In this document: positions 30,837 to 43,546 of the stretch, one piece after another | How the letters are laid out: each line of letters opens with the position of its first letter | Numbering within the stretch: position 1 is the first letter of the stretch | Assembly (NCBI GenBank): GCA_965206455.1 | Contig: CBDBJS010000002.1 | Coordinates: forward strand, 3,327,779-3,391,778 | Reading direction: 5' to 3' | DNA from: Longimicrobiales bacterium | Lineage (GTDB): Bacteria > Gemmatimonadota > Gemmatimonadetes > Longimicrobiales > Gaopeijiaceae | DNA length: 64,000 nt | Notes under the pieces: model-generated | The model's database searches: none | What the model was told of the DNA's origin: nothing | The model's input: only the letters and a program-made list of their open reading frames with translations | Made by a program: the position numbers and the translations under genes

Positions 30837-31922
30837 ATGAGGCGCCGGGACTTCCTCCTCGCCGCGGGGGGCGCCGCCGCACTGGGTGCGCTTCCCGGGT
30901 GCGTCGCCGACACCGGCCAGGCACCCCGGACAGACCCTCCCGCACCCTTCACTCTGTGGACATGGGTCCACGGCAACCGCGACTACGACGCAGCCGAGTG
31001 GGGCCGCCGCTTCGCGCGGCTGCGGGAAGCCGGTTTCGGCGCGGTGCTCGTCGGGGGCGGCGACATCGGCCTGGTGTCGGGCGCCGCCCATGCGGAAGGG
31101 CTCGAGTACCACCGCTGGTTCTGGACAATGAACCGCAACGGCGACGAATGGGTCCGGTCCAACCACCCCGAGTGGTTCACGGTCAGCCGCAACCTCGAAT
31201 CGTCGCTCGACCAGCCGCCCTACGTCGGCTACTACAAGTGGGTCTGTCCGTCGCGCGGGCCCGTGCGGGACTATCTCGGCCAACGCGTTGGCGAGCTGGC
31301 TGCCAACCCGGCCGTCAACGGCGTGCACCTCGACTACGTGCGCCACTGCGACGTGATCCTGCCGCGGGGGCTCTGGGACACCTACGGGCTCGTGCAGGAC
31401 ACCGAGCATCCCGAGTTCGACTTCTGCTACTGCGACGTGTGCCGCGAGGAGTTCGCCGCTCTCGACGGGCGAGACCCGCTGGAGATCCCCGATCCCCCGG
31501 CCGACGAGGCGTGGCGGCGTTTTCGATGGGACAACGTCACCGGCGCGGTGCGGGCCCTGGCCGGCGCGGTGCACGATCACGGCAAGCCGATTTCCGCCGC
31601 TGTCTTCCCGACGCCGACGATCGCGCGACGGCTGGTCCGTCAGGCGTGGGACGAGTGGCCCCTCGACCGCTTCTTTCCGATGCTCTACCACAGCTTCTAC
31701 CTGGAAGACATCGCGTGGATCGGGGAGGGGGTGCGCGAAGGGGTCGGTGCGGCGGGCGGGACGCCGCTGAACGCCGGGCTGTATCTGCCGTCGCTTGATC
31801 CGGCCGGACTGGCCGAGGCGGTTGCGACGGCCCGGGCGGCCGGGGCAGCGGGGGTTTCCACGTTCGAAATGCACGGACTCACCGACGAGCACCTTGTCGC
31901 GTTGCGGGATGTCGTGGGATAG
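30837..31922 (+). CDS. TAT-signal protein, glycoside-hydrolase-like TIM-barrel (family unresolved)
   Basis: MRRRDFLLAAGGAAALG TAT signal. VHLDYVRH and the conserved Cys cluster CYCDVC resemble glycosyl-hydrolase-like family 10 proteins. Weak call. Confidence 0.5.
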   Translation: MRRRDFLLAAGGAAALGALPGCVADTGQAPRTDPPAPFTLWTWVHGNRDYDAAEWGRRFARLREAGFGAVLVGGGDIGLVSGAAHAEGLEYHRWFWTMNRNGDEWVRSNHPEWFTVSRNLESSLDQPPYVGYYKWVCPSRGPVRDYLGQRVGELAANPAVNGVHLDYVRHCDVILPRGLWDTYGLVQDTEHPEFDFCYCDVCREEFAALDGRDPLEIPDPPADEAWRRFRWDNVTGAVRALAGAVHDHGKPISAAVFPTPTIARRLVRQAWDEWPLDRFFPMLYHSFYLEDIAWIGEGVREGVGAAGGTPLNAGLYLPSLDPAGLAEAVATARAAGAAGVSTFEMHGLTDEHLVALRDVVG

Positions 31923-31963
31923 TGTTACGGCCGTTCGCCGCTCCCCCACCCCGAGGTCATGGT

Positions 31964-33526
31964 ATGCCTGGAACCCCCGAAACCAATGCGCGGTGGTTGG
32001 CCGCCGCCCTTCTTGCCCTGACCGCCTGCACTCCCCCCGAGCCCCGGGACGACGGGGCCCTGCGTTTCGCGGTCGCCCGCTTCCAGCACGAGACCTGCAC
32101 CTTCTGCCCGGGCGGCGACACCGAAGTCGAGGACTGGCTGCAGTACAGCGAGCCGTTGTCGGGTGAAGACCTTCTGAGTTCCGGTAGCTACGTCGGCGGC
32201 TTCGTGAAGCGGGCGCTGGAATTCGGGGACGTGGACCTGGTGCCGCTCACCTCGCCGGTCGGGGTCTTCGGCGGATCGTCCAGGAGCTGGAACACCAGGG
32301 AGACGTTCGACCACTTCCTCGACGCGATGATTTCCGACCTGCGCGCGGAGATGCCCGTCGACGGGGTCTACCTGGCCCTGCACGGCGCAATGGCCGTACG
32401 GGACGTCCCCCGCCCCGAGGCCGAGATCGCGCGGCGCTTCCGGGAAGTGGTCGGGCCGGGGGTTCCCATCGCGGGCACCTTCGACCTTCACGGCAACGAG
32501 GACGGCGAATTCCTCGAACACGCCGACTTCGCGTTCGTGACCAAGCGCTACCCCCACTACGACGCCTACATCCAGGGCGAGCGCGCGGCCCGGGCGCTGC
32601 GGCTCGCCTCACTGGGCGAATACGAATCCACCACGGCGACCCGGAAGCCCGGGATCATCACGGCCACCGTCCTGCAGTGGACCGGGCAGTCCCCTTCGAT
32701 GGACATCATGGAGCGGGCCCGGCGGTGGGAGGCGCGGGAAGACGACGCGTACGTGAGCATCTTCTACGGCTATCCCTGGTCCGACGTCCCCGACGTGGGC
32801 TTGACCGTGCACGTCATGACCAACGGCGACCAGGCCCTCGCGGACATGATCGCCGACGACATGGACGACTTCATGTGGCGCGTGCGGGAGGACTTTGCCG
32901 TCGGCGGCCACCCCGGCCCCGAGGAGGCCGCGCGGATCGTTGCGGCGGCGGTCGCGAGCGGCGAGACCCCCGTCGCGGTCGGCGACCACAGCGACCGGCC
33001 CGGCGACGCGACCCACATCCTGGGCGCCTTCGAGGCGGCCGGGATCGGCAACGTGCTGTACGGGACGATCACCTCACCCGCCACCCTGGAGGCGCTCGCG
33101 GCAGCCGGCGCCCGGCCCGGCGACCCCTTCCACATGGAGATCGGCGGCTTCACGCCATCGGGGGGAATGCCCCGGCGCGTCACCGGCACCGTGGAATATT
33201 TCGGCGAAGGCTTCGGCTACGACGCGATCGCCGTGGTCTCGTTCGGCGACGGCAACGTGGTCTTCCTCACCCCGGCCTACGAGCAGGTGCTCTACCCGGA
33301 CGCGTTCCGGATCGGCCCGATCGACCCCGACGACTACGACGTCTTCGTGGTCAAGTCGAGGGTCCACTTCCGGCGCGGCTTCGACGAGACGGGGTATGCG
33401 CGGTCCATCGTGGTCGTGGAGGCACCGGAGCCGTTCGTGGGCACAACCTTCCTGGACGCGCTGCCGTACGAGCATGTGGATCTGGGTGAGCTGTACCCGT
33501 ATGGGGTGCCGGCGGGGAGGCGGTGA
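31964..33526 (+). CDS. M81-family metallopeptidase (MlrC-like), lipoprotein
   Basis: Lipobox LLALTAC. RFAVARFQHETCTF is the N-terminal DUF1485/MlrC signature, and the length fits. Confidence 0.8.
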   Translation: MPGTPETNARWLAAALLALTACTPPEPRDDGALRFAVARFQHETCTFCPGGDTEVEDWLQYSEPLSGEDLLSSGSYVGGFVKRALEFGDVDLVPLTSPVGVFGGSSRSWNTRETFDHFLDAMISDLRAEMPVDGVYLALHGAMAVRDVPRPEAEIARRFREVVGPGVPIAGTFDLHGNEDGEFLEHADFAFVTKRYPHYDAYIQGERAARALRLASLGEYESTTATRKPGIITATVLQWTGQSPSMDIMERARRWEAREDDAYVSIFYGYPWSDVPDVGLTVHVMTNGDQALADMIADDMDDFMWRVREDFAVGGHPGPEEAARIVAAAVASGETPVAVGDHSDRPGDATHILGAFEAAGIGNVLYGTITSPATLEALAAAGARPGDPFHMEIGGFTPSGGMPRRVTGTVEYFGEGFGYDAIAVVSFGDGNVVFLTPAYEQVLYPDAFRIGPIDPDDYDVFVVKSRVHFRRGFDETGYARSIVVVEAPEPFVGTTFLDALPYEHVDLGELYPYGVPAGRR

Positions 33527-33615
33527 GGTGGGGGGGACGGTTGCTGAGATGGTGGCGGCGCTTGCGGCGGCAGCCCCGTGCGGGTAGTGTTGGCGCCCCT
33601 AAACGGAAGAAACCG

Positions 33616-35049
33616 ATGACCCAAGCCCCCAGCGCCAAATCTCTTGTCGAGCGCTTCAAGCTGAAGGAGCGAGGTCGCGAGCGTGGCCGGAGCGACCTGC
33701 CTTCGGAGCATCAGCCCACACTCGATGATGTCGAAACCGATGTAGTGGACTACTGCAACGGTCTCTTCGCGGAAAAGCGGGACGAGTACAGCAAGCACCG
33801 GCCCATCTTCGAGGAAAGAATGAGGCCGCCATCGGAGAGTCGCGGTGCGGACGCGTTGTTGGAACAGGCTTGCAAGGAACTGAAGGATGCTGTAGCGGAG
33901 GAGCGGCCAGATTTGGAAGGCCTGGCACGAGATGCACAACAAGCCATCGGTGAACTCAATCGTTTCAAGCGCGAAGAAGGGAGAACGGCCGACGCGGACT
34001 TCCCTGAGAGCCATCGGCTGCACTATGGGATCCTGGCGGCCTTGTTGGTATTGGAAACGTTGATAAACGGCATCTTCTTTGGGGCGAACGTTGCCGGCGG
34101 GCTCTTCGGAGGCATGAGCTACGCGGTTCTGATCAGCGCCGTCAACGTGTTGGGGCTCGGTTTCCTGGCAGCGACCATGTTCAGGTATGTCCAGCACCGC
34201 GATTCCCGTCGCAAGATCGGCGGGTTGGCGATCCTGGGCGTTGTTGTGGTCGTTGCAGTCTTCTGGAATCTCTTCGTAGCTCACTACCGCGAGGCCCTGG
34301 CGGAGGACTACCCACCCGCGCCCGGGACCGTCACCGCGGAGTCGTCGGCGTCGGAGCAGGAGATAGCCGCCTGCTGGAGGGGGCCCGACGAATCCGAGGC
34401 TGATCAGGAAGCTCTGTGTCTGTTCCGGGCAAGTCCATTTGGATTGGGCGGATTCTACTCGTACATGCTTCTCCTGATCGGACTTGCGATGTGCGCTTTC
34501 GCAGCTTTGGACTGGTTCAAGACGGATGACCCCTACCCAGGCTACGGCAAGAGAGAACGAAACCGAAGGCGGACCGAGGGAGCGCTTTCCGACGACCGGC
34601 GCGAACTTCTGGGCCGGGTCAGGGATATGCATGATGACGCCCTGCGAAGACAGCGCGGCGATTTCGTCGATCCGGTCGACTCCCGGGGCCTCGCCCTGAG
34701 CGCCTTCGACAAGCTTCTAAGGCGACATGGCGACCTTTGCAGCTTTGCCGACGACCTCGAAAAGAGCTGTAGTGGCGCTCTGGATATCTACCGGACGGCC
34801 AACCGCGAGGCCCGGTCCACTCCCGAGCCGCGCCTGTGGCAAGAAACGTGGGTATCCGACTGGCCTCGGCCGGAGCCGCCGAGCAACTCGGATCTCATGA
34901 CCGAGGCGGAAGCCGCGCAGCGCAGCCTCGATGCCCACACAGCCTTGGAGGAACGCGAGAAGAAGCTGCGATCCTGTCACGACGAGTGCCAAACCCTTGT
35001 GAACGACTTCACAAAGCTCGACCCACATGACAAGGCCGTTCCGACATGA
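33616..35049 (+). CDS. Gene A of candidate system: 4-TM protein with N- and C-terminal coiled-coil-like cytoplasmic regions
   Basis: 477 aa from ATG 33616. TM helices are LHYGILAALLVLETLINGIFF, MSYAVLISAVNVLGLGFLAATMF, LAILGVVVVVAVFWNLFVAHY and FYSYMLLLIGLAMCAFAALDWF. A Cys-containing ~50-aa loop lies between TM3 and TM4, and DDPYPGYG follows TM4. No family recognised. Confidence 0.7.
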   Translation: MTQAPSAKSLVERFKLKERGRERGRSDLPSEHQPTLDDVETDVVDYCNGLFAEKRDEYSKHRPIFEERMRPPSESRGADALLEQACKELKDAVAEERPDLEGLARDAQQAIGELNRFKREEGRTADADFPESHRLHYGILAALLVLETLINGIFFGANVAGGLFGGMSYAVLISAVNVLGLGFLAATMFRYVQHRDSRRKIGGLAILGVVVVVAVFWNLFVAHYREALAEDYPPAPGTVTAESSASEQEIAACWRGPDESEADQEALCLFRASPFGLGGFYSYMLLLIGLAMCAFAALDWFKTDDPYPGYGKRERNRRRTEGALSDDRRELLGRVRDMHDDALRRQRGDFVDPVDSRGLALSAFDKLLRRHGDLCSFADDLEKSCSGALDIYRTANREARSTPEPRLWQETWVSDWPRPEPPSNSDLMTEAEAAQRSLDAHTALEEREKKLRSCHDECQTLVNDFTKLDPHDKAVPT

Positions 35050-35864
35050 GCAAGCAATCGCGCCAGCGGGCAAAACAGCGCAAAGACCGGCTCGGCGTCA
35101 TCGTGGGTGGGTTCGCCGTGGCGATACTGGTCGTCCTTTTTCTTTGGGGCCAACGTGGTGGCCGCCGCCTCGATTCCTCAAACTGCCCGGAAGACCGGCG
35201 GTACGCGGCACAGATTGCGATTCTGGTCGATCCATCCGACACCTTGACCAGCGTGCAGGAGGGTTCGGCCGCTCCACGAATCCTGGAAGCCATCGAGCGC
35301 GAGGCGACCGAAACGACCGAGATCCGTGTGTACACCGTGGGTAGAGCGGGCCGAGGCGACACCGCCACCGTGCTGCGCCTCTGCAAGCCATCCCATCCCG
35401 ATAGCGTCTCGTCGTTGACGGGCAATCCCCGGACGGCAGCCAGGCGGTACGACGAGAGTTTCCTAGCTCCTCTGGAAGGGACCTTGGCCGCACTTTTGGA
35501 TGTCGAGGGTGACACCATCTCGCCGATCATGGAGGGTATCCAGGCCGCTGCCGTGAACGCTTTCCGGCCACGCAACACGAACATCCCACGCCAACTCCTG
35601 ATCGTGTCCGACATGATTCAGAATTCCGCCGATCTCTCGTTCTACACGGATCCCATAGGCTTTGGGCCCCTTTCTCGAGACCCCAACTACGGAACGCTCA
35701 GGGTAGATCTCTCGGGTGTCGCCGTCACGGTGTTCCTCTTGGCGCGGCGGGGTGAGGCCGGCCGGATTCAGGCTGGACCCCTGCGCGGCTTCTGGGAGGA
35801 CTATTTCATCGACCAGGGAGCCGAGCAGGGCGCCAGGCCCAGATGGATCAACGTGGAAGGATGA
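35046..35864 (+). CDS. Gene B: N-terminally membrane-anchored vWA-like protein
   Basis: ATGA overlap with gene A (35046-35049). Basic N-terminus plus TM (VIVGGFAVAILVVLFLW). MIDAS-like spacing ILVDPSDTLTS ... GDTISPI ... LLIVSDMIQN. Confidence 0.6.
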   Translation: MSKQSRQRAKQRKDRLGVIVGGFAVAILVVLFLWGQRGGRRLDSSNCPEDRRYAAQIAILVDPSDTLTSVQEGSAAPRILEAIEREATETTEIRVYTVGRAGRGDTATVLRLCKPSHPDSVSSLTGNPRTAARRYDESFLAPLEGTLAALLDVEGDTISPIMEGIQAAAVNAFRPRNTNIPRQLLIVSDMIQNSADLSFYTDPIGFGPLSRDPNYGTLRVDLSGVAVTVFLLARRGEAGRIQAGPLRGFWEDYFIDQGAEQGARPRWINVEG

Positions 35865-37321
35865 ACAGCACGGCCGGACAATTCAGCGCCGCGGCATCCA
35901 GGGAAGCCCGGAAGCAGCACCGGGAGTCATGGCTCATCGTCCTGGGCATCGGCTTTGTGATCATCATCATCGGCAACCTTCTCGGCTTGGGACCCTGGTG
36001 GCTTGCCATCGCGGTCTCCGTTGCGATGGGCGGCTTTGCCTATTCCGTCCGGGATGTCGATGTATCCGGTGACGCCAAGGGCGATTCCATTTACTACCTT
36101 GGCCTGCTTTTTACATTCGTGGCACTCGTCGCGGCACTGATTGCTTTCGATTGGGAGACTTCCGATGCTGCCGGGAGCAGCACATCGGGAGCAATCCGCA
36201 ACTTCGGGATTGCCCTGCTGACCACAATCGTCGGCCTTGCAGGGCGCGTCTGGTTTTCAATGTCTCAGGAGTCGCCAGGCGACATAGCACACACGGCCAA
36301 GTCAGCACTCGAAGAAGCCGTGTCCGCAATGAAGGGGAGCCTCGACCGGGCACGTGACGACCTGGATACGTTGGCCGGCAAGTTCCGGGAGTCGACAAAG
36401 GATCTCGGGAAGACCACCGCCACGATTGCCGCCAGCGCCAAGAAGGCCGCCGAGACCTCCGAGTCTCTGGACAAATGCTCGGCGGAAGTCGCAGGAGCGG
36501 CCAAGGACTTTACTCGCGAAATGGGCGACTTCCGCACTGCCATGGGGGCAGGGGCAGACGCCGCAGCCAGCTTGAAACGATCTCTTGGGGGAATCGGGGA
36601 TCAAACCAAAGTGTTCGGAACACGCTTTGAGACCCTCAGCGAACAAATCGAGCAGATCCACTCCGCTTTTGCCCGAATCAACGGCGTGGCAGGGCCGTCC
36701 GCCGATGCAATCGCCGCCACTTCGCAGGGAGTGTCACACGCAGCTGCCGAGGCATCTTCCCTCGGCAGGACGTTGGCTGGTCTGCGGCACAGCGCCGGGA
36801 AGGCGCGCAAGGCGTTCGACGGAGTCGCCGACTCCGTCGATGCGACCCGTGTGGTGCCCGCCTTGGAAGAGGCTGCAGCTCAGGTTGCCGAAGGAGGCCG
36901 GCATTTTCGGAGCGTCGGTGTACAAGCGGCCGCCACGGACGACGAGTTGGCGGGCTTGGGGGAGTCCGCCAGGAACGCTAAGGACAGCATTGCCTCGGTC
37001 TCGGACACCGCTCGATCGATCCGCGAGCACATGGATGGAGCGCGCAACGACCTCTCGTCCAGCGTCAGTACGGTTCAGAAGCATACGCGAGGCTTGAACG
37101 CGGACCTGGATGCGATGGAGGATCAGTCCGTCAAACTATCCGGCGCTCTTGCGCGTGTTGAGCGGCAGGCACAGCGCTTGTCCGAAGACATTCGCCAAGC
37201 CCGCGCCAGCGGCGTTCCCGGATCGCTGGCGGTGAGCCCCTTCACCTGGATCGCACGTGCATTCCGGCGCGTGGCTCGGGGTCGGAGCCAAGCCGACCCA
37301 ACCTCCCGGCGTAGACGCTGA
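35861..37321 (+). CDS. Gene C: MotA/ExbB/TolQ-like channel protein with ~330-aa Ala-rich helical tail
   Basis: ATGA overlap with gene B (35861-35864). It has 4 TM helices. YLGLLFTFVAL and FGIALLTTIVGLAG lie 37 residues apart, versus GLFGTVWG and ALLATAIGL 35 residues apart in E. coli ExbB as I recall it. A long helical C-terminal region follows. Confidence 0.55.
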   Translation: MNSTAGQFSAAASREARKQHRESWLIVLGIGFVIIIIGNLLGLGPWWLAIAVSVAMGGFAYSVRDVDVSGDAKGDSIYYLGLLFTFVALVAALIAFDWETSDAAGSSTSGAIRNFGIALLTTIVGLAGRVWFSMSQESPGDIAHTAKSALEEAVSAMKGSLDRARDDLDTLAGKFRESTKDLGKTTATIAASAKKAAETSESLDKCSAEVAGAAKDFTREMGDFRTAMGAGADAAASLKRSLGGIGDQTKVFGTRFETLSEQIEQIHSAFARINGVAGPSADAIAATSQGVSHAAAEASSLGRTLAGLRHSAGKARKAFDGVADSVDATRVVPALEEAAAQVAEGGRHFRSVGVQAAATDDELAGLGESARNAKDSIASVSDTARSIREHMDGARNDLSSSVSTVQKHTRGLNADLDAMEDQSVKLSGALARVERQAQRLSEDIRQARASGVPGSLAVSPFTWIARAFRRVARGRSQADPTSRRRR

Positions 37322-37339
37322 CCGGACGGCATTGCGCCC

Positions 37340-38638
37340 ATGCTCCCCGCCGAGAAGACACATTACCGGAAGGGCTTGGCACTGGGACTAACCCTGGCCG
37401 AGACATTCAGTATCGTCGTCTTCATCCTGCTACTGGCGTGCGCGGTTCTGCTACGGCAGGAGCAGAGGCAACGGGACACGGCCCAAGCGCAACGGGACAC
37501 GGCCCAAGCGCAGCGGGACACGGCCCAAGCGCAGCGGGACACGGCCCAAGCGCAGCGAGACACGGCCCAAGCGCAGCGGGACACGGCGCGAATCGATCTC
37601 TCAATCACTCAGGAGATGCTGCGCGCAGACAGCATTTCCTGGGGGAATGCGGACGCGTGGTTCGACTACGCCAGACGGCTCCGCCAAGAGTTGGAAGCTG
37701 AGCAAGTCCGCGCCGAGACGACCGAAAGGGACCTTGTCCGCGAGAGGGCTCGCGCTTCGGAAGCAGAGGCACTGTTGGCCGCTAGGGCATCGAACGATGA
37801 TCTCGCGGAGCGCACCCTGGAGCAGGCCGCCGAGCTTGATGCGCTGAAGGACTCCGTTTCTGGGAGCGAGCGCCGTTTTAATGAAGTGACAAGCCGCCTG
37901 GATTCACTTGAGACGCGTCTCGCCGAGGCGGAGCAGATCGGCCGACTCGTGCGCGACGGCATCGCGGAGCGCAGAGACCTTAGTCCCGAACAAGCGTGGG
38001 AAGTTGTCGAGCAAGCTGCTCATGCGGAGCGCCTGGCAGATTCCTTGTCGGGCGCCCGACGAACGATCGGTGCCATGGACCGCGAACTGCGGGAGGTCCA
38101 GCAGTTGCTGCACGGTGACACTGCCGCTGCGGTCGATTCACTTCGGACCAGCCTAAGCGACAGCCGCTTCCGCGAAGACACGCTTCGTGGCCGAATCAGA
38201 GACGCCGAGCGGGAGCGCGATGACGCAATAGGCCGGGCCGAGTACCGCGAAACCCAACTTCAACAGTTGCGGCAAGGGTCCGGAATCGATCCTCCCCCGT
38301 GCTGGCTGGACGGAGAGGGCAGTCCCGAGTACATCTTCCGCATCGAGTTAATGGACAGAGGCATGAGACTGTTCAACATCGCGCCTGAGCGACGCGTCAA
38401 CAGCGATCCCGAGGCAATGAGGTATGCGGCATCGATCGAGGACGGACGCATCTACGCTCCTGCCGAGTTTCTACGCCTTGCCTTGCCGTTCTACTCTATG
38501 GGCACGGCCCGAACCGAGGCATTCGGTCCGATGGGCTGCCGATTCTGGATTCGACCCGTTGACCTCACGGGCGACCGCAAGGACATTTTCCAGGAGCGAC
38601 AGGAGCAGCTGTGGCGGCGTTTCTGGTTCCGATGGTAG
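37340..38638 (+). CDS. Gene D: MotB/ExbD/TolR-like single-TM protein with long coiled coil and unknown C-terminal domain
   Basis: The TM helix LTLAETFSIVVFILLLACAVLL has an embedded acidic residue. It is followed by (QRDTAQA)x5 and ~250 aa of coiled-coil-like sequence, then a ~120-aa domain with two Cys (PPPCWLDG, PMGCRFW). Confidence 0.5.
   Translation: MLPAEKTHYRKGLALGLTLAETFSIVVFILLLACAVLLRQEQRQRDTAQAQRDTAQAQRDTAQAQRDTAQAQRDTAQAQRDTARIDLSITQEMLRADSISWGNADAWFDYARRLRQELEAEQVRAETTERDLVRERARASEAEALLAARASNDDLAERTLEQAAELDALKDSVSGSERRFNEVTSRLDSLETRLAEAEQIGRLVRDGIAERRDLSPEQAWEVVEQAAHAERLADSLSGARRTIGAMDRELREVQQLLHGDTAAAVDSLRTSLSDSRFREDTLRGRIRDAERERDDAIGRAEYRETQLQQLRQGSGIDPPPCWLDGEGSPEYIFRIELMDRGMRLFNIAPERRVNSDPEAMRYAASIEDGRIYAPAEFLRLALPFYSMGTARTEAFGPMGCRFWIRPVDLTGDRKDIFQERQEQLWRRFWFRW
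37469..37590 (+). repeat. Tandem repeat: 5 full plus 1 partial copies of a 21-bp unit CA(A/G)CG(G/A)GACACGGCCCAAGCG
   Basis: Units at 37469, 37490, 37511, 37532 and 37553, with a partial unit at 37574. Full units differ only at positions 3 and 6. In frame they encode QRDTAQA heptads inside gene D. Confidence 0.95.
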
Positions 38639-38716: not shown

Positions 38717-40330
38717 ATGAGCGGCCACTGGGGATTCTACGGGCGCCACGAAGAACTCGGAGGTCTGGTACGCGCCCTCCGGGCCGATCGCTGGTTCTTC
38801 GGCGCGATCCGCGGGCGCCGACGTGTAGGCAAGACCGAACTCGCGCACCGAGCTCTCGACACGGTCCGGGCAGAAGACCCCGGCCGCCCCATCCTGTACC
38901 TGCAGCTCGTGGACGAATCCGAGTCGGGCATGGCAACCCGTTTCCGCCGGGCTATTGCTGCGGAGCCCTCCCTGGATCCCGCCACGATCGACCTCGACGA
39001 TCTCAGGGACCATCACGGCGTCGCGAACGCCGTCGGCCGGATCTGCGCGGCGCACGGGATCGTGGTTCTGGACGAGTTCCAGGTGTGTCATCGGGGGCCG
39101 CTACGTCCCCTGGCTTCCTCGCTTCAGTTCGAGGTGGACAACCTGCAGCGTCGCGACCGCCGGGGCGCGCTGATTCTCCTGGGGTCGGTGCAAACCGAGA
39201 TGGAAGAACTGTTGCACGGCCAGCGGTCGCCCCTGTTCGGGCGCGCCACCTATTCGCTCACCCTTCGGCCTTGGCGCATCGCCACGACACTGAATGTCGC
39301 CGGTCGCCATCGCGGTGCCGACCCGCACCGCTTCCTCACACTGTGGACGCTGTTCGATGGTGTTCCGAAGTATTGGCGGCACTTCGCGGGTCTTACTGGC
39401 AGCCTCCCGGGGCAAGGTAATGACAGGTGGACCATGGACTTGGCCAACCGGCTCTTCCTCGCGCCGGACGCCCTGCTGCGCGACGAAGGGGAAGTCCTCC
39501 TGGGACGCGAGCTCCAGGGCGACAGCCTGCGCATCCTGCGCGAGGTCGCGACGCGGCGTTTCTCGACCCTTCCCCGTCTGCGGCGGGTCTTCCCCGGCCT
39601 GGCGGATCTCGAAGAGCGCCTCGAAGCGCTGGTCTTGGACTTGCGCCTGGTGGGTCAACGCATGCCGATGTTTCGCGGCAACCGTCAGGCCGCCCGGTAC
39701 GTCGTTTCCGATCCGTTCCTACGAGCCTGGCTGAACGTTTTCGAGTCCGCCGCAGGCAGGGCGCAGGTGCGCCAAGCGCACGGTATCGACAAAGCACTGC
39801 TTCGAGACTTGCGCACTCTGGAGGCCTACGCCTTCGAAGAAATCGTGCGGGAGGCGAGCCATCAGGCCTCGCGACTGGGTGCGGACGACTTCCCGCTTAC
39901 GGAACTGGCAGGCGGTTACTGGAACAGGCCGGAAGCCGGAGGCGACATCGAGATCGACTACATCGCGTGGAACGCGGACGAGGTCAGGGTTCGCTTCGGG
40001 TCTTGCAAACGCAATGCGCACGCGCATGACGAAGCCTCGCTGAACCGCTTTCGTGGCCATGTGGACCGATATCTCAACACGGACCACGGTCGGCGCTTCC
40101 GTGACGCCCACACCGAATACGCGCTGTTCTCGCCCGTCTTCGAGCTCGACCAGCGGTCCGCGCTGGAAGGAGGCGGCTGGATCTGCCGGGACCTTTCGGA
40201 CTTCCGGCGGATGCTTTCCCTACCCCTCAAACCAACATCCCGTCCGCAACCACCTCCACCGTCGCAGGCCCGTTGTACGCCAACGCCTGCGCCAGCGCGT
40301 CGTCCAGCTCGCTCGCATCCCGCACCCTGA
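38717..40330 (+). CDS. Gene E: Arch_ATPase (PF01637-type) P-loop ATPase with DUF234 PD-(D/E)xK-like C-terminus
   Basis: FYGRHEELGGL...GRRRVGKTEL (Walker A), VVLDEFQ (Walker B), and the C-terminal GDIEIDYIAW...VRFGSCKR nuclease-like motif. The last ~40 aa are Pro-rich and overlap the convergent gene by 104 nt. Confidence 0.8.
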   Translation: MSGHWGFYGRHEELGGLVRALRADRWFFGAIRGRRRVGKTELAHRALDTVRAEDPGRPILYLQLVDESESGMATRFRRAIAAEPSLDPATIDLDDLRDHHGVANAVGRICAAHGIVVLDEFQVCHRGPLRPLASSLQFEVDNLQRRDRRGALILLGSVQTEMEELLHGQRSPLFGRATYSLTLRPWRIATTLNVAGRHRGADPHRFLTLWTLFDGVPKYWRHFAGLTGSLPGQGNDRWTMDLANRLFLAPDALLRDEGEVLLGRELQGDSLRILREVATRRFSTLPRLRRVFPGLADLEERLEALVLDLRLVGQRMPMFRGNRQAARYVVSDPFLRAWLNVFESAAGRAQVRQAHGIDKALLRDLRTLEAYAFEEIVREASHQASRLGADDFPLTELAGGYWNRPEAGGDIEIDYIAWNADEVRVRFGSCKRNAHAHDEASLNRFRGHVDRYLNTDHGRRFRDAHTEYALFSPVFELDQRSALEGGGWICRDLSDFRRMLSLPLKPTSRPQPPPPSQARCTPTPAPARRPARSHPAP

Positions 40331-42272
40331 CCCCGAACGCCCCGCACAGCTTCGCGTACTCGGAAAAATCCGGGTTGTGCAGCGACGTCTGCCACACGTC
40401 CAGGCTGCCCGCGCGCTGCTCCTTGGAGATCTTGCCCAGCTCGTCGTTGTTGAGGACCAGGTGGGTGATGTTCATGCCGTACTTGACGGCTGTGGTGATC
40501 TCGGCCAGGTACTGCCCGTAGCCCCCGTCGCCGGAGACTGCGACCACCTGACGTCCGGTGAAGGGGGTCCCCTCTTCCCGGGTCGCCGCCCAGGCGCCGA
40601 GCGCCGCGGGGTAGGCGAAGCCGATGGAGCCGAGATACCCCGACATGAGGACCGCCTGGCGCCGGCATTCGAAGTAGCGGCCGAACGAATAGGCGTTGTT
40701 GCCGACGTCGATGGTGAGGATCGCGTTGTCGTCGACCGCGCGGGTCAGCGCCGCGAAGATCGCCGCCGAGTTGACGCCCTCCCCCCGGTCGTCCGCTACG
40801 CGCCGCGCCTTCTCGGCCCGCCAGATACGCCACCGGTCCGCGATCTCGCCGCGGTGGTCCGCCGACGCCGCGCCATCTTCGGCCACGGCCCGCGCGAGCA
40901 GGTCCACCGTGATCCCGATCTCGCCCCAGACGGGCACGTCCACCGCGTGGAATTTCCCCAGCGCCATCGGATCGAAGTCGACCTGGATCGTGGGCTTCTT
41001 GTCCGTGATGCCCGTGTGATTGGAGAAGCTGGCACCGAGCACGAGCAGCAGATCGCTCTCGTTCATGAACCAGCTCGCGATCGGGGTGCCGCTCCTTCCC
41101 AGGACGCCGCAGCCGAGCGGATGCGTGTCCGAGATCAACCCTTTTGCCTTGAATGTGGTCACAACCGGGCAGTTGAGGCGTTCCGCCAGCGCCGTGATCC
41201 GGTCCATGTTGAAGCGGGCCCCGTGGCCAACGATGATCACCGGTCGCTCGGCGCCCTTGAGCAAGGTCGTCGCCTCTTCAAGGGCGTCCGCAGGCGGCGC
41301 AATGGTCCTTCGGGTCAGTCTGCCCGCAGGTCCTCCCGGCCCGCTCCCCTCGTCGGCCGGCAGCACCTGAACCTCGTCGGGGAAGATGAGGTGGGACACG
41401 CCCCGGTTCAGGATCGCGCTCTTGCACGCCAGGTTGATCAGCTCGGCGTGCTTGCTGGAGTGAAGAACCGGCTGGCTCCACTGGGCGACCTTGCCGAAGG
41501 CGGCCTGAAGGTCCACCTCCTGGAACGCCCCGGGCCCCAGCACCTGGGTGTCGACCTGCCCGGTCAGCGCGAGGACGGGGGAGCGGTCCACGTTGGCGTC
41601 CCAGAGGCCGGTCAGGAGATTCGTCGCCCCGGGCCCCGCAATGGACAGACAGGCCGCCGGCCTCCCGGTGAGCTTGCCGTACGCTGACGCGGCAAAGGAC
41701 GCAGCGCCCTCGTGACGGATCCCCACGAAGGTCATCTCTCCCGCCTCTTCCCGCCGTCGGATGGCGTCGGCCAGCCCCAGGTTGGAGTGCCCCACCATCC
41801 CCCACACCCACCGCACCCCCCAGTTCACCATGGACTTCGCCATCACATCGGACACCGTCTCGACATGCAGTTCGTCTTCGGGCAACCCGACGTAGATCCC
41901 ATCCTCCCGCACCTCCACCTTGTAGGTTGCGACCCCGTCGTCGTACCCTCCCGGCGGCTTTCCCGTCAGCGGATGGAAGTCCCAGCCGTGCCAGGGGCAG
42001 CGCAGCCAGCCGTTCTCGATCGAGCCTTCACCAAGGGGCCCGCCCTGGTGCGGGCACTTGTTGTCCAGCGCGGCATAGATGCCCTTGTGGCGTGTCATGC
42101 AGACGGTCTTGCGGCCGCAGCTGACGGCCTGCACGCGGCCCTCGGGCAACTCGTCGGGAGCGAGGACTCTGAGCCAGCGGACCCGGCCGCCACCCGGAGC
42201 GGCAGCGGAGGAGCCGTTGCCGGTTGCGGAAGGAGACTGGTCGACGTCGGAACGGCCGGAAGGATCTGACAT
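40227..42272 (-). CDS. Rieske [2Fe-2S] domain fused to a thiamine-pyrophosphate enzyme (acetolactate synthase/pyruvate oxidase-like)
   Basis: Start at ATG 42272. Rieske motifs CPHQGGPL and CPWHGWDF. TPP enzyme N-domain GHSNLGLADA...IAGPGATNL. TPP-binding GDGGYGQY...LNNDELG. Confidence 0.85.
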   Translation of the reverse strand: MSDPSGRSDVDQSPSATGNGSSAAAPGGGRVRWLRVLAPDELPEGRVQAVSCGRKTVCMTRHKGIYAALDNKCPHQGGPLGEGSIENGWLRCPWHGWDFHPLTGKPPGGYDDGVATYKVEVREDGIYVGLPEDELHVETVSDVMAKSMVNWGVRWVWGMVGHSNLGLADAIRRREEAGEMTFVGIRHEGAASFAASAYGKLTGRPAACLSIAGPGATNLLTGLWDANVDRSPVLALTGQVDTQVLGPGAFQEVDLQAAFGKVAQWSQPVLHSSKHAELINLACKSAILNRGVSHLIFPDEVQVLPADEGSGPGGPAGRLTRRTIAPPADALEEATTLLKGAERPVIIVGHGARFNMDRITALAERLNCPVVTTFKAKGLISDTHPLGCGVLGRSGTPIASWFMNESDLLLVLGASFSNHTGITDKKPTIQVDFDPMALGKFHAVDVPVWGEIGITVDLLARAVAEDGAASADHRGEIADRWRIWRAEKARRVADDRGEGVNSAAIFAALTRAVDDNAILTIDVGNNAYSFGRYFECRRQAVLMSGYLGSIGFAYPAALGAWAATREEGTPFTGRQVVAVSGDGGYGQYLAEITTAVKYGMNITHLVLNNDELGKISKEQRAGSLDVWQTSLHNPDFSEYAKLCGAFGVRVRDASELDDALAQALAYNGPATVEVVADGMLV

Positions 42273-42520
42273 GGGAGCGGTTCTCCATGGGTTCGCGGGG
42301 GCGGCAGCACAATACGATACCCACACGCACCAGGACAGGTTCACGACCGGTCATCGGGCCCCCGGCGACCCAGGCGAAGCCGCGCGGGCTTGATTCTTGC
42401 CCCCGAACCTCGGAACATGCATCATTCCAGCATGACTGGATCCGATCTCGTCCGAGACCGGAATCGCCCCTCCGAACCGAACAACGCCTCCCCACCCATG
42501 ACAGGGCGAAGACGAACACG

Positions 42521-43546
42521 ATGAAACTAGACCGCGAACAGGTGCAACACTGGAAGAAAGTCCTGTCGCCGTACTTCGGTCCCGACGACCGCCGAAGTGC
42601 CTGGCAGATGGGCTACACCACCGTCCTCTTCATGGGCGTGTGGGCTCTCATGTACTGGAGCCTCGGTGTGGGCTACTGGCTCACCCTTTTCCTGGCCTTC
42701 CCCACCGCCGGACTGCTCATGCGGCTCTTCATGTTCCAGCACGACTGCGGGCACGGGTCGTACTTCAAATCCCACCGCCTGGCGTGCGTGGCGGGCTCCG
42801 TGATCGGGGTGCTCACCCTTACTCCGTACCACTACTGGCGGAAGACCCACGCACTCCATCATGCGCATGCGGGCGACCTCGATCTGCGCTCCTTCGGGGA
42901 CATTACCACGGTCACGGTCAAGGAGTACGAGGCGATGTCCTCCAAGCAACGCTCCTGGTACCGGCTCTACCGCAACCCGGTGTTCCTCTTCGGCTTCGCC
43001 GCCGCGTTTCAGTTCATCGTCAAGCACCGATTCCCGTGGGATGTGCCCAAGGACTGGAAGCGTGAGTGGAAGTCCGTGTGGTGGACCAACGCGGCCCTCG
43101 TCACCATCATCGGCGGAGCCTGGTTCACAATCGGCATCGGCCCCCTGTTGATGATTCAGCTCCCGATCACCCTCATTTCGTGCGCGATCGGAGTGTGGCT
43201 CTTCTACGTGCAACACCAGTTCGAGGAAGCGTACTGGCACCGGCACGAGGACTGGAACTACTTCGACGCCGGTCTTCACGGCTCGTCCTTCCTGAAGCTC
43301 CCCAAGGTGCTGCAGTGGTTCACGGCCAACATCGGCCTCCACCATGTCCACCACCTGAGCGCCCGCATCCCCAACTACCGGCTCCAGCGTTGCCACGACG
43401 AAAACCCGGAGCTGTGGGAGGCCCCGCGCATGACCCTGTGGGACGGACTCAAGACCCTGCACCTGTCTCTCTGGGATGAGGGACGCCGCAGGCTGATCTC
43501 GTTCCGGGAATACCGGCGGCTGCAGACGGCGGAGGCGCACTCTTGA
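42521..43546 (+). CDS. Membrane fatty-acid desaturase
   Basis: Three His boxes (HDCGH, HALHHAH, HHVHHL) with four TM helices. Start at ATG 42521. Confidence 0.9.
   Translation: MKLDREQVQHWKKVLSPYFGPDDRRSAWQMGYTTVLFMGVWALMYWSLGVGYWLTLFLAFPTAGLLMRLFMFQHDCGHGSYFKSHRLACVAGSVIGVLTLTPYHYWRKTHALHHAHAGDLDLRSFGDITTVTVKEYEAMSSKQRSWYRLYRNPVFLFGFAAAFQFIVKHRFPWDVPKDWKREWKSVWWTNAALVTIIGGAWFTIGIGPLLMIQLPITLISCAIGVWLFYVQHQFEEAYWHRHEDWNYFDAGLHGSSFLKLPKVLQWFTANIGLHHVHHLSARIPNYRLQRCHDENPELWEAPRMTLWDGLKTLHLSLWDEGRRRLISFREYRRLQTAEAHS

What the first reader, a model, noticed from the sequence alone, without database searches (positions are those of the whole stretch)
35861..38638. Stator-like pair with unusual features: Glu instead of Asp in the plug-less TM helix and extensions on both sides of the membrane
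In gene C, YLGLLFTFVAL and FGIALLTTIVGLAG are 37 residues apart, close to the 35-residue spacing of GLFGTVWG and ALLATAIGL in ExbB. In gene D, the only TM helix (LTLAETFSIVVFILLL) places Glu where MotB/ExbD/TolR carry the proton-binding Asp. With positive-inside topology, C's ~330-aa tail is cytoplasmic (as in ZorA), and D's coiled coil and C-terminal domain are periplasmic. The two Cys in that domain are consistent with a disulfide.
Basis: partly seen in the sequence, partly recalled or inferred. Interest (0 to 1): 0.7.

Follow-up and report, generated by a model that had tools for sequence, protein, structure and literature searches.

The report
Stator-like membrane pair using glutamate
Genes C and D look like a very divergent relative of the ion-driven MotA/MotB-type membrane motors, in which the supposedly universal proton-carrying aspartate is always a glutamate; they belong to a widespread, undescribed four-gene cassette whose biological role is unknown.

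Summary
C (35861-37321) has four TM helices and a 351-residue helical cytoplasmic tail. D (37340-38638) has one TM helix with Glu21, a long helical stalk and a C-terminal domain with two invariant Cys.

No curated model recognises C. Its last TM hairpin nevertheless matches MotA/ExbB/ZorA in the expected register, repeatedly but below threshold. Profile-profile score against ZorA is 28-33, against 15.5±2.1 (max 23.6) for within-helix shuffles, and it beats the true pairs ZorA-TolQ and TolQ/ExbB-MotA run the same way. Invariant T91 and T128 align with the ion-path Thr/Ser of ZorA and TolQ.

Glu21 is invariant in 41 close homologues and 57/57 metagenomic relatives. It lies 17 hydrophobic residues before the end of the helix, as does Asp in MotB, TolR and ExbD. 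In Rhizobium, Sinorhizobium and Paracoccus plasmid cassettes, D carries the same Glu helix plus an OmpA domain (Pfam cut-off passed in Rhizobium; "OmpA family" annotation elsewhere), which is the MotB/ZorB architecture.

C and D always sit in a conserved A-B-C-D cassette; A and B match no family. The cassette is not Zorya, and the genomic context does not establish defence. No paper describing it was found. Stoichiometry, ion flow and function remain untested.

Verdict: new variant of a known kind.

The parts
33616..35049 (+). Gene A (477 aa from the likely true start; the ORF itself opens at 33523). Polytopic membrane protein with four predicted TM helices, cytoplasmic helical N- and C-terminal domains, and a periplasmic loop carrying a conserved Cys pair (CW..EA.C). 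TM1 carries invariant Glu and Asn (ETLINGxFFG). First gene of the conserved cassette.
   Evidence: ORF. Homologues start at MxQAPS..SLVERFKLKERG, and ATG at 33616 is confirmed. Syntenic in 41/45 genome loci. No Pfam, PADLOC, NCBIfam or PDB family. Invariant E147, N151, N177, H223, R225. Topology is inferred from hydrophobicity and the positive-inside rule.
35046..35864 (+). Gene B (272 aa). It has an N-terminal basic segment, one TM helix and a roughly 230-aa predicted periplasmic alpha/beta domain. Invariant residues include C47, C113, D62, D65 (DPSD), S159-P160 and S188-D189-M190. It is possibly a very divergent vWA-like fold. Its start overlaps the stop of A (ATGA).
   Evidence: No family hit; 1 of 14 members touches VWA_3 at E = 0.02. 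Syntenic with A, C and D.
35861..37321 (+). Gene C (486 aa from Met7). Proposed MotA/ExbB/TolQ/ZorA-like subunit with four TM helices (about 29-48, 51-69, 82-104 and 117-141 in ORF numbering), N-in and C-in, followed by a 351-aa helical tail.
   Evidence: Its ATG overlaps the stop of B.
36086..36265 (+). C residues 82-141: the TM3-loop-TM4 hairpin that aligns with ZorA TM2-TM3 and TolQ TM2-TM3. It contains invariant T91 (36113-36115), T128 (36224-36226) and R135 (36245-36247).
   Evidence: hhalign register. HMM alignments to ZorA 8vvn_C and to TolQ. Invariant columns. Codons checked. ZorA T147/S184 as ion filter: PMC11946911.
36266..37318 (+). C cytoplasmic tail (residues 142-492). It is all-helical, rich in Ala, Ser, Arg and Gly, poorly conserved and variable in length among homologues (whole proteins range from about 340 to 694 aa).
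   Evidence: AF2 predicts helices 145-248, 254-330 and 334-455 at pLDDT 45-70. Only coiled-coil-type hits such as DUF1664, SMC and the ZorA tail were found. Composition; length variation.
37340..38638 (+). Gene D (432 aa). Proposed MotB/ZorB-like subunit with a short basic N-terminus, one TM helix, a long helical periplasmic stalk and a C-terminal Cys-containing domain.
37376..37453 (+). D TM helix (residues 13-38, LALGLTLAETFSIVVFILLLACAVLL) with invariant Glu21 (GAG, 37400-37402). The motif A-E-T-F-S parallels MotB A-D-F-M-T and ZorB S-D-I-M-S. Glu is followed by 17 hydrophobic residues, as is Asp in MotB, TolR and ExbD.
37454..38272 (+). D periplasmic helical stalk (residues 39-311). AF2 predicts five long helices. 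It includes a 21-nt tandem repeat at 37468-37587 (5.7 copies) that encodes AQAQRDT heptads.
   Evidence: Homologues carry one or two copies of the heptad.
38273..38635 (+). D C-terminal alpha/beta domain (residues 312-432) with signature PPCW...PEYIF...GCRFW...FWFRW. C321 (38300-38302) and C400 (38537-38539) are invariant. The domain is new and occupies the position taken by an OmpA domain in other cassettes.
   Evidence: AF2 pLDDT is mostly 90-97 over this domain, with one dip to 73. No Pfam or PDB hit. Invariant columns. The same domain occurs in 28 metagenomic D proteins, against 14 with an OmpA-like domain.

Best explanation
C and D are the two subunits of a highly divergent member of the MotAB/ExbBD/TolQR/ZorAB superfamily of ion-driven membrane motors.

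Inferred mechanism:
- C oligomerises around a D dimer, presumably as a pentamer by analogy.
- The TM3-TM4 hairpin of C lines the ion path, with invariant T91 and T128 as the polar filter.
- Invariant Glu21 of D is the protonatable carrier, in place of the usual Asp.
- D is N-in. Its helical stalk crosses the periplasm, and its C-terminal domain anchors the dimer to the envelope. In proteobacterial orthologues this anchor is an OmpA-type peptidoglycan-binding domain. In this window it is a new domain that is probably stabilised by a disulfide.
- Proton flow would then turn C around the anchored D and move C's cytoplasmic helical tail, as in ZorA.

The pair never occurs alone. It is the distal half of a strictly conserved, translationally coupled four-gene cassette, A-B-C-D. 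A is a new 4-TM protein with large cytoplasmic domains. B is a membrane-anchored periplasmic protein. I take these two to be the regulator or load of the motor.

Most likely role: an envelope-anchored, PMF-powered sensor or transducer. Whether its output is anti-phage defence or envelope maintenance is not settled.

Shown here: gene order, conservation, motif register, Glu invariance and the OmpA fusion. Inferred: stoichiometry, rotation, proton use and function.
For: (a) Recurrent sub-threshold hits in the right register:
- PADLOC ZorA2 model to C residues 86-211, E = 1e-3.
- C-family profile to the solved ZorA chain 8vvn_C, residues 153-231, E = 0.6.
- PF01618 hit by 8/21 members of C's family and 16/24 of the sister subfamily.
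- ZorA2 models lead the PADLOC hits for the TM domain alone.

(b) hhalign against a ZorA family alignment gives score 28-33 and P = 4e-4 to 2e-3, always TM3-TM4 of C on TM2-TM3 of ZorA. Controls were 18.8 reversed, 13.1±2.8 for column shuffles (max 19.4, n = 60) and 15.5±2.1 for within-helix shuffles (max 23.6, n = 80). True pairs run the same way score lower: ZorA-TolQ 25.4 and TolQ/ExbB-MotA 24.8. TolQ finds MotA only at E = 0.058, and finds no ZorA at all, by phmmer against the PDB.

(c) Invariant T91 and T128 align with ZorA T147 and S184/186 and with TolQ T145 and T178 (PMC11946911).

(d) Glu21 is invariant in 41/41 close homologues, in 9/9 diverse cassettes and in 57/57 metagenomic loci. 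It sits at the same depth as Asp in MotB, TolR and ExbD, 17 residues before the end of the helix.

(e) Rhizobium johnstonii pRL11 D has the same Glu helix plus a coiled coil plus OmpA PF00691 above its gathering score. The corresponding genes are annotated 'OmpA family protein' in Paracoccus and Sinorhizobium cassettes, and 14 metagenomic D proteins are OmpA-like.

(f) In MotB, ExbD and TolR, Glu is reported as the only substitution for Asp that keeps some activity in MotB and ExbD, and it keeps reduced activity in TolR (PMC6663468; bioRxiv 10.1101/2022.09.26.509584).

(g) A-B-C-D order is kept in 41/45 genome loci and in the metagenomic and plasmid loci examined, though in L002 two genes lie between C and D. 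The A/B and B/C junctions are ATGA overlaps.

(h) Conserved Cys pairs occur only in the predicted periplasmic parts of A, B and D.
Against: - No curated model (Pfam PF01618, NCBIfam, PADLOC ZorA) reaches its threshold on C.
- HH-suite probability is only 13-34%.
- Only the last TM hairpin aligns. C lacks the large cytoplasmic domain of MotA and the membrane-proximal domain of ZorA.
- Foldseek searches of both AF2 models returned only generic helical proteins, and the tail of C was predicted at low confidence.
- D in this window has no OmpA or ExbD/TolR-type domain.
- Generic TM families such as TgpA_N also give sub-threshold hits (11/21).
- No effector is conserved with the cassette, and many contexts are housekeeping genes.
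- Stoichiometry and ion flow could not be tested.
Confidence: 0.65

Rival explanations
1. The resemblance is convergent or coincidental. On this reading C and D are simply membrane-anchored coiled-coil proteins, for example a scaffold, an envelope tether or an MCP/YoxC-like sensor. They would have no ion pathway, and Glu21 would be a structural polar residue involved in helix packing.
For: - No curated HMM passes its threshold.
- hhalign probability is below 35%.
- Small-residue, Thr-rich TM motifs such as G-x-x-x-G and TT-x-x-G are common.
- Public sources annotate relatives as 'methyl-accepting chemotaxis protein' or 'YoxC'.
- Fold searches gave only generic helical matches.
Against: - The match exceeds every composition-preserving shuffle and exceeds true family pairs run the same way.
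- The same family (PF01618/ZorA) recurs out of 24,736 Pfam and 5,027 PADLOC models.
- The partner protein independently has the MotB architecture, with an OmpA domain and an acidic TM residue at the canonical depth.
- A buried Glu that is invariant across at least 100 divergent sequences is hard to explain as mere packing.
Confidence: 0.17
2. C and D are a genuine stator-like complex, and the cassette as a whole is a Zorya-like anti-phage system. An envelope perturbation would release the motor, the tail of C would signal in the cytoplasm, and A (a membrane protein) or a neighbouring nuclease would act as the effector.
For: - C has a ZorA-like long tail.
- In this window the next gene is the PADLOC candidate PDC-S27 (E = 2.5e-118).
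- A soil locus is flanked by Mrr_cat, SMEK_N, DNase_II and HTH genes.
- The Rhizobium and Microvirga cassettes sit beside an SNase-family nuclease, close to HipA or recombinase/integrase genes.
- One genome carries two cassettes (L022 and L031).
- Flanks vary between loci.
Against: - A and B match no PADLOC model, and there are no ZorC, ZorD or ZorE relatives.
- No nuclease or other effector is conserved. The SNase gene is absent from the Paracoccus, Sinorhizobium and Gemmatimonadota loci.
- Several loci lie among housekeeping genes, for example MlrC upstream and a fatty-acid desaturase plus a PLP decarboxylase downstream, or sugar ABC transporters, or 2-oxoglutarate dehydrogenase.
- PDC-S27 looks like an insertion specific to this window.
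Confidence: 0.3
3. C and D are a genuine motor, but they work like Tol-Pal or Ton. On this reading D combines a TolR/ExbD-type helix with a TolA/TonB-like periplasm-spanning stalk and a C-terminal head. It would deliver PMF energy to the wall or outer membrane, with B as its periplasmic partner. The cassette would then be an envelope-maintenance or transport device.
For: - D has a roughly 270-residue helical stalk and a small alpha/beta head.
- A, B and D all have conserved periplasmic parts with Cys pairs.
- Neighbours are housekeeping or transport genes in many loci.
- The cassette occupies a stable chromosomal position (MlrC ... desaturase) in some Gemmatimonadota.
Against: - TolQ and ExbB have no long cytoplasmic tail, whereas C always has one.
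- An OmpA-type head implies a fixed anchor rather than a mobile force transducer.
- No TonB, TolA, TolB or Pal signatures were found.
Confidence: 0.3

Closest known systems
ZorA-ZorB core of the Zorya anti-phage system (5:2 proton-driven motor; PDB 8vvn and the E. coli ZorAB structure in PMC11946911)
   Same: - It is the best-scoring relative of C's TM hairpin in PDB, PADLOC and hhalign.
- The Thr-to-Thr/Ser spacing is 37 residues in both.
- In both, the pentamer-type subunit carries a long helical cytoplasmic tail directly after its last TM helix.
- In both, the partner is a bitopic protein with an acidic TM residue, no MotB-type plug, a short coiled coil and, in orthologous cassettes, an OmpA-type peptidoglycan-binding domain.
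   Different: - Glu replaces the 'universally conserved' Asp.
- C has four TM helices and only a roughly 12-residue cytoplasmic loop, and lacks ZorA's membrane-proximal domain.
- C's tail is about half as long (351 residues, against about 500).
- In this window D has a new Cys-containing head instead of OmpA.
- There are no ZorC, ZorD or ZorE. Two unrelated obligatory partners, A and B, are present instead.
- No ZorA model reaches significance on the full protein.
MotA-MotB / PomA-PomB flagellar stator units
   Same: - Both the pentamer-type subunit and C have four TM helices with N-in, C-in topology.
- The ion-path hairpin is formed by the last two helices.
- The partner motif [A/S]-[D/E]-x-[F/M]-[S/T] sits 17 residues before the end of the helix.
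- Some D orthologues carry an OmpA domain.
- The two genes are adjacent or overlapping.
   Different: - C has no large TM2-TM3 cytoplasmic domain with rotor-contacting charges.
- D has no plug helix.
- The carrier is Glu rather than Asp; MotB D32E works only weakly.
- No flagellar genes are nearby.
ExbB-ExbD and TolQ-TolR, with TonB or TolA
   Same: - The motifs GLFGTVWG and ALxATAIGL align with YLGLLFTF and ALLTTIVGL. TolQ T145 and T178 fall on C T91 and T128.
- The partner helix has its acidic residue at the same depth.
- D's long periplasmic helix plus small head recalls TolA and TonB.
   Different: - ExbB and TolQ have three TM helices and no tail.
- ExbD and TolR have their own periplasmic fold, which was not detected here.
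- Thr-to-Thr spacing is 33 in ExbB and TolQ against 37 in C.
- No TonB or TolA-type partner gene is present.
GldL-GldM / PorL-PorM (type IX secretion and gliding motor)
   Same: - It is a 5:2 motor whose pentamer subunit has a cytoplasmic tail and whose dimer subunit has a long periplasmic shaft (PMC9389320).
- From my own knowledge, its key acidic residue is a Glu.
   Different: - In GldLM the Glu lies on the pentamer subunit (from my own knowledge, not checked here), whereas here it is on the single-helix subunit.
- No sequence similarity was detected. The only hit was an NCBIfam GldL match in the tail at E = 0.08.
- There is no type IX secretion context.

Membership tests
MotA/TolQ/ExbB proton-channel family (Pfam PF01618) and ZorA | Recognised by the family HMM at or above the curated threshold | tested here: not met
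   C itself has no PF01618 hit. Members of its family reach at best E = 0.099, and the sister subfamily 1.1e-3, against a cut-off of 22.9 bits. PADLOC ZorA2 gives E = 1e-3. Precomputed Pfam columns show neither PF01618 nor PF28082.
MotA/TolQ/ExbB proton-channel family (Pfam PF01618) and ZorA | Profile-profile similarity of the last TM hairpin, in register and above background | tested here: inconclusive
   hhalign score 28-33, P = 4e-4 to 2e-3, but probability only 13-34%. The score is above all 141 controls and above the true pairs ZorA-TolQ and TolQ/ExbB-MotA.
MotA/TolQ/ExbB proton-channel family (Pfam PF01618) and ZorA | Conserved Thr/Ser on both hairpin helices lining the ion path | tested here: met
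   T91 and T128 are invariant. They align with ZorA T147 and S184/186 and with TolQ T145 and T178 (PMC11946911).
MotA/TolQ/ExbB proton-channel family (Pfam PF01618) and ZorA | Pentamer enclosing a dimer of the partner helix (5:2) | not testable with these tools
   Only single-chain prediction was available. The monomer models gave no informative fold match.
MotB/ZorB-type partner subunit | Single N-terminal TM helix, N-in, with an essential acidic residue (Asp) near the cytoplasmic side | tested here: met
   The position is met and the residue identity differs. Glu21 is invariant. It lies 8 residues into the helix, with 17 hydrophobic residues after it, as for MotB D32, TolR D23 and ExbD D25. 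Asp itself was never seen.
MotB/ZorB-type partner subunit | C-terminal OmpA-like peptidoglycan-binding domain | tested here: not met
   D in this window has no OmpA signal in Pfam or PDB. The feature is met in orthologous cassettes: Rhizobium PF00691 at 28.7 bits against 27.2, annotations in Paracoccus and Sinorhizobium, and 14 metagenomic loci by motif.
Zorya defence system (types I-III) | ZorAB together with ZorC/ZorD, ZorE or ZorF/ZorG effector genes | tested here: not met
   A and B have no PADLOC hits. The downstream gene is PDC-S27, not a Zor protein. No Zor effector appears in any related locus.
ExbD/TolR | Periplasmic ExbD/TolR-fold domain, and a TonB or TolA partner | tested here: not met
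   No ExbD/TolR Pfam or PDB hit for D. No TonB or TolA-like gene lies in the cassette.
GldLM/PorLM | Sequence membership and type IX secretion gene context | tested here: not met
   The only signal is an NCBIfam GldL hit at E = 0.083 in the tail. There are no type IX secretion neighbours.

The most novel reading that the evidence does not exclude
The A-B-C-D cassette could be a previously unrecognised class of ion-driven 5:2-type envelope machine. It is widespread: at least 2,361 clusters at 50% identity for the C domain. It occurs in Gemmatimonadota, a few Rhodothermales, Alphaproteobacteria and many soil, marine and freshwater metagenomes. Evolution has fixed Glu rather than Asp as the ion carrier, with a pore adapted to it. 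Two obligatory new partner proteins, and interchangeable periplasmic anchors (an OmpA domain or a new disulfide domain), would couple the motor to an as yet unknown envelope or immune function.
Probability: 0.5. Interest if true: 0.8.

Novelty: new variant of a known kind. Interest (0 to 1): 0.7.

Why it matters
All characterised MotAB, PomAB, ExbBD, TolQR, AglRQS and ZorAB motors use an Asp on the inner helix. The Zorya structure paper calls this residue "universally conserved and mechanistically essential". In MotB, ExbD and TolR, changing Asp to Glu leaves only residual activity.

A large natural family in which Glu is invariant would show that the ion-coupling chemistry of these motors is more plastic than thought. 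It would also provide a natural system for asking how side-chain length and pKa are accommodated.

The family is invisible to Pfam, NCBIfam and PADLOC, so current censuses of stator-like motors miss thousands of loci. The cassette also brings three new protein families: A, B and the Cys-containing head of D.

The cassette occurs in culturable, genetically tractable bacteria (Rhizobium johnstonii 3841 pRL11, Paracoccus yeei, Microvirga, Sinorhizobium), so the hypothesis can be tested directly.

Tried and rejected
- **Single-sequence searches against the PDB.** C and D returned only coiled-coil matches.
- **Foldseek of the full AF2 models against the PDB.** Both searches were dominated by the long helices and were uninformative.
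- **hhalign of the C family against single E. coli TolQ, ExbB or MotA sequences.** Power was too low (probability at most 1.6%). The true relatives ZorA-TolQ, ZorA-ExbB and ZorA-MotA scored just as poorly in this set-up.
- **Full-length sister-subfamily proteins against PADLOC.** Many ZorA hits down to 5e-10 appeared. I discounted them because the coiled-coil tails could cause them, and repeated the scan with the TM domain alone.
- **B as a vWA protein.** Only 1 of 14 members touches VWA_3, at E = 0.02, and there is no PDB hit. I kept this as a weak lead only.
- **A as a known channel or transporter.** No family or PDB match was found.
- **D's head as OmpA, ExbD/TolR, TonB or TolA.** No sequence signal was found.
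- **The SNase nuclease as a fifth cassette gene.** It is present next to the Rhizobium and Microvirga cassettes but absent elsewhere, so I rejected it as a core component.
- **PDC-S27 as part of the system.** It is absent from all 49 related loci tested, so I rejected it.
- **Promoter and terminator scan of the operon.** Nothing exceeded the shuffled expectation.
- **Literature searches.** Searches for the cassette, its protein accessions or Zorya-like new types found nothing.

Full report
**What is there.** The finding lies in a four-gene operon on the + strand.

- A is 33523/33616-35049. Homologues show the start is the ATG at 33616.
- B is 35046-35864.
- C is 35843/35861-37321. Met7 at 35861 is the conserved start.
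- D is 37340-38638.

The A/B and B/C junctions are ATGA overlaps, and 18 nt separate C from D. The next gene, 38717-40330, is a strong match to the PADLOC candidate defence gene PDC-S27 (E = 2.5e-118). The only corrections are numerical: motif starts are 36 apart in C and 33 in ExbB, and the tail is 351 aa.

**Anatomy of C.** Hydropathy and the AF2 model give four TM helices, at about 29-48, 51-69, 82-104 and 117-141. pLDDT is 82-86 there, and a low-confidence all-helical tail follows. With the basic N-terminus inside, the tail is cytoplasmic. Conservation is concentrated in the membrane part. Y84, Y85, G87, F90, T91, F92, F121, G122, A124, L125, T127, T128, I129, G131, L132 and R135 are invariant in 44 homologues, whereas the tail is poorly conserved and varies in length.

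**Is C a MotA/ExbB/TolQ/ZorA relative?** Curated models say no at their thresholds. C has no Pfam PF01618 hit and no NCBIfam hit, and PADLOC ZorA2 reaches only E = 1e-3 over residues 86-211. The same answer nevertheless keeps coming back below threshold.

- A profile of the C TM domain finds the solved ZorA chain 8vvn_C (residues 153-231) at E = 0.6.
- 8 of 21 family members touch PF01618.
- An exhaustive profile search shows the domain is large: 2,361 clusters at 50% identity at E<=1e-3 and 1,363 at E<=1e-10. It has a big sister subfamily with signature GDNLYYLGFLFTL...NFGIALxTTIVGLALRV.
- For that subfamily's TM domain alone, PF01618 is the most recurrent of 24,736 Pfam models (16/24 members, best E = 1.1e-3, profile positions 51-102 of 127 in the member shown). 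ZorA2 models lead the PADLOC hits.

I then built a ZorA family alignment from a Pseudomonas plasmid ZorA and its relatives and ran profile-profile comparisons. The TM3-TM4 hairpin of C always aligns with TM2-TM3 of ZorA. Scores were 28-33, P was 4e-4 to 2e-3, and HH probability was only 13-34%.

| Comparison | hhalign score |
|---|---|
| C superfamily vs ZorA | 28-33 |
| ZorA alignment reversed | 18.8 |
| Full column shuffles (n = 60) | 13.1±2.8, max 19.4 |
| Within-helix shuffles (n = 80) | 15.5±2.1, max 23.6 |
| ZorA vs TolQ (true pair) | 25.4 |
| TolQ/ExbB vs MotA (true pair) | 24.8 |

TolQ detects MotA in the PDB only at E = 0.058, and detects no ZorA at all. So the test has low power for this superfamily in general, and C does at least as well as accepted members.

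In the alignment, invariant T91 and T128 fall on ZorA T147 and S184/186 and on TolQ T145 and T178. The Zorya structure paper identifies these ZorA residues as contacting ZorB Asp26 and resembling an ion-selectivity filter (PMC11946911).

**Anatomy of D.** AF2 (mean pLDDT 82.5) predicts a single continuous helix from residue 4 to 95, covering the TM helix and the first part of the stalk. Four further long helices run to residue 311, followed by a confident alpha/beta domain at 312-432.

The N-terminal 38 residues are almost invariant (MLPAEKTHYRKGLALGLTLAETFSIVVFILLLACA). Glu21 is invariant in all 41 aligned homologues, as are C321 and C400.

Placed next to E. coli MotB, TolR and ExbD and Pseudomonas ZorB, the acidic residue is followed by 17 hydrophobic residues before the helix ends in D, MotB, TolR and ExbD. 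The local motif A-E-T-F-S parallels A-D-F-M-T in MotB and S-D-I-M-S in ZorB.

The head domain has no Pfam or PDB relative.

**The decisive context.** C and D are never alone.

- In 41 of 45 GTDB loci the order A-B-C-D is intact. These are Longimicrobiales and other Gemmatimonadota, plus a few Rhodothermales.
- The same holds in distant metagenomic relatives and in the sister subfamily.
- The sister subfamily occurs on plasmids of cultured Alphaproteobacteria.
- In Rhizobium johnstonii 3841 pRL11 the four genes are RL_RS31080-31095. The D-position protein has the same N-terminal helix (YNRGLILGLTMAESMLLLVFCLLL), a coiled coil and an OmpA domain above Pfam's gathering score (28.7 against 27.2 bits).
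- The corresponding genes in Paracoccus and Sinorhizobium are annotated 'OmpA family protein', and the Paracoccus proteins carry the classical GHxxxxG...NxxLSxxRA motif.

A bitopic protein with an acidic TM residue and an OmpA peptidoglycan-binding domain, encoded immediately after and overlapping a polytopic partner, is the MotB/ZorB architecture. This also fixes D's topology: N-terminus in, stalk and head in the periplasm.

A scan of metagenomes with the sister-subfamily profile found 476 relatives. In the 57 of the 80 retained loci where the downstream ORF could be read, the residue was Glu in 57/57 (GLT[MLV]AE). My detection model was seeded with Glu-containing helices, but one position in forty would not exclude Asp.

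The head was OmpA-like in 14 loci and the CW...PEYIF...CRF domain of this window in 28. So the anchor is modular, while the Glu helix is fixed.

**Plausibility of Glu.** Experimental work on the known motors shows that Glu is the only substitution retaining any function in MotB and ExbD, and that it retains reduced activity in TolR. MotB D32E, D33E and D24E give reduced motility. ExbD D25E keeps 5-10% activity. TolR D23E has lower but detectable activity (PMC6663468; bioRxiv 10.1101/2022.09.26.509584). A family that has fixed Glu is therefore chemically reasonable, but unprecedented among described members.

**A and B.**
- A has four predicted TM helices, an invariant Glu and Asn in TM1, cytoplasmic helical N- and C-terminal domains and, in the Gemmatimonadota type, a periplasmic loop with a Cys pair.
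- B has a basic N-terminus, one TM helix and a periplasmic domain with two invariant Cys and DPSD/SPI/VSDM motifs that faintly recall a vWA MIDAS site.
- Neither matches any Pfam, NCBIfam, PADLOC or PDB family.
- Conserved Cys pairs occur only in predicted periplasmic segments of A, B and D. This is consistent with disulfides and with the proposed topology. It is an inference.

**Function.** I commit to a PMF-driven, envelope-anchored stator-like unit whose output is the cytoplasmic tail of C, working with A and B. The biological role is open.

For defence:
- PDC-S27 is adjacent here.
- One soil locus has Mrr, SMEK and DNase II neighbours.
- The Rhizobium and Microvirga cassettes lie next to an SNase nuclease and near HipA, recombinase or integrase genes.
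- One genome has two cassettes, and flanks are variable.

Against defence:
- No effector is conserved.
- PDC-S27 is in none of the 49 related loci.
- Many loci are embedded in housekeeping genes. One example is MlrC-A-B-C-D-desaturase-decarboxylase in a Gemmatimonadota genome. That arrangement also shows PDC-S27 is an insertion in this window.

A Tol/Ton-like envelope role is equally possible.

**Novelty.** No paper describing the cassette was found. Public annotations are 'hypothetical', 'methyl-accepting chemotaxis protein' or 'YoxC'.

I file it as a new variant of a known kind. It works like a MotAB/ZorAB motor, but it fails family membership by curated HMM, uses Glu, and comes with two new partners and a new anchor domain.

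Noticed in passing
window 38717-40330 (+): This 537-aa ATPase (ATPase_2/AAA_14 with a DUF234-like C-terminus) matches the PADLOC candidate single-gene defence system PDC-S27 at E = 2.5e-118. It is absent from all 49 related loci tested. In a related genome (L060) the cassette is followed directly by a fatty-acid desaturase, which in this window lies at 42224-43546. The PDC-S27 gene therefore looks like a local insertion.
   Followed up: partly
window 37468-37587 (+), inside gene D: A 21-nt tandem repeat (5.7 copies, 96% matches) encodes AQAQRDT heptads just after the TM helix of D. Homologues have one or two copies. This allele therefore has a stalk about 28-35 residues longer, which may be a length polymorphism of the periplasmic coiled coil.
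   Followed up: partly
window 33523-33615: The ORF of gene A opens at a GTG at 33523, but all homologues begin at the equivalent of the ATG at 33616 (MTQAPSAKSLVERFKLKERG...). The first 31 codons are probably not translated.
   Followed up: yes
L054 11052-11795 (-) and L055 11478-12167 (+): A staphylococcal-nuclease (SNase, PF00565, E about 3e-13) gene lies directly after the cassette on Rhizobium johnstonii pRL11 and on a Microvirga ossetica plasmid. It is absent from the Paracoccus, Sinorhizobium and Gemmatimonadota loci. It could be an optional effector or a coincidence.
   Followed up: partly
L002 4710-6158: In one metagenomic relative, two genes are inserted between C (694 aa there) and D. 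One is DprA/SLOG-like (PF02481) and the other a HAD hydrolase.
   Followed up: no
L022 and L031 (both contig OY762557.1): One Longimicrobiales genome carries two complete, diverged A-B-C-D cassettes. Their D proteins are 59% and 54% identical to the window D.
   Followed up: no
window 31922-33526 (+): An MlrC/DUF1485-type gene lies directly upstream of the cassette. The same neighbour occurs in 7 of 45 genome loci and in L060, which indicates a partly conserved chromosomal site in Gemmatimonadota.
   Followed up: partly
gene A TM1, window about 34054-34068 (LETLINGIFFG); alignment A12: A carries an invariant Glu and Asn inside its first TM helix, plus invariant N177, N218, H223 and R225 near the membrane. 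This suggests a second polar or ion pathway in the cassette, independent of the C-D pair.
   Followed up: no
one search hit table: ZorA relatives carry a precomputed Pfam family, PF28082, that never appeared as a hit in any local Pfam scan run here. C-family proteins show neither PF28082 nor PF01618 in the precomputed columns.
   Followed up: no
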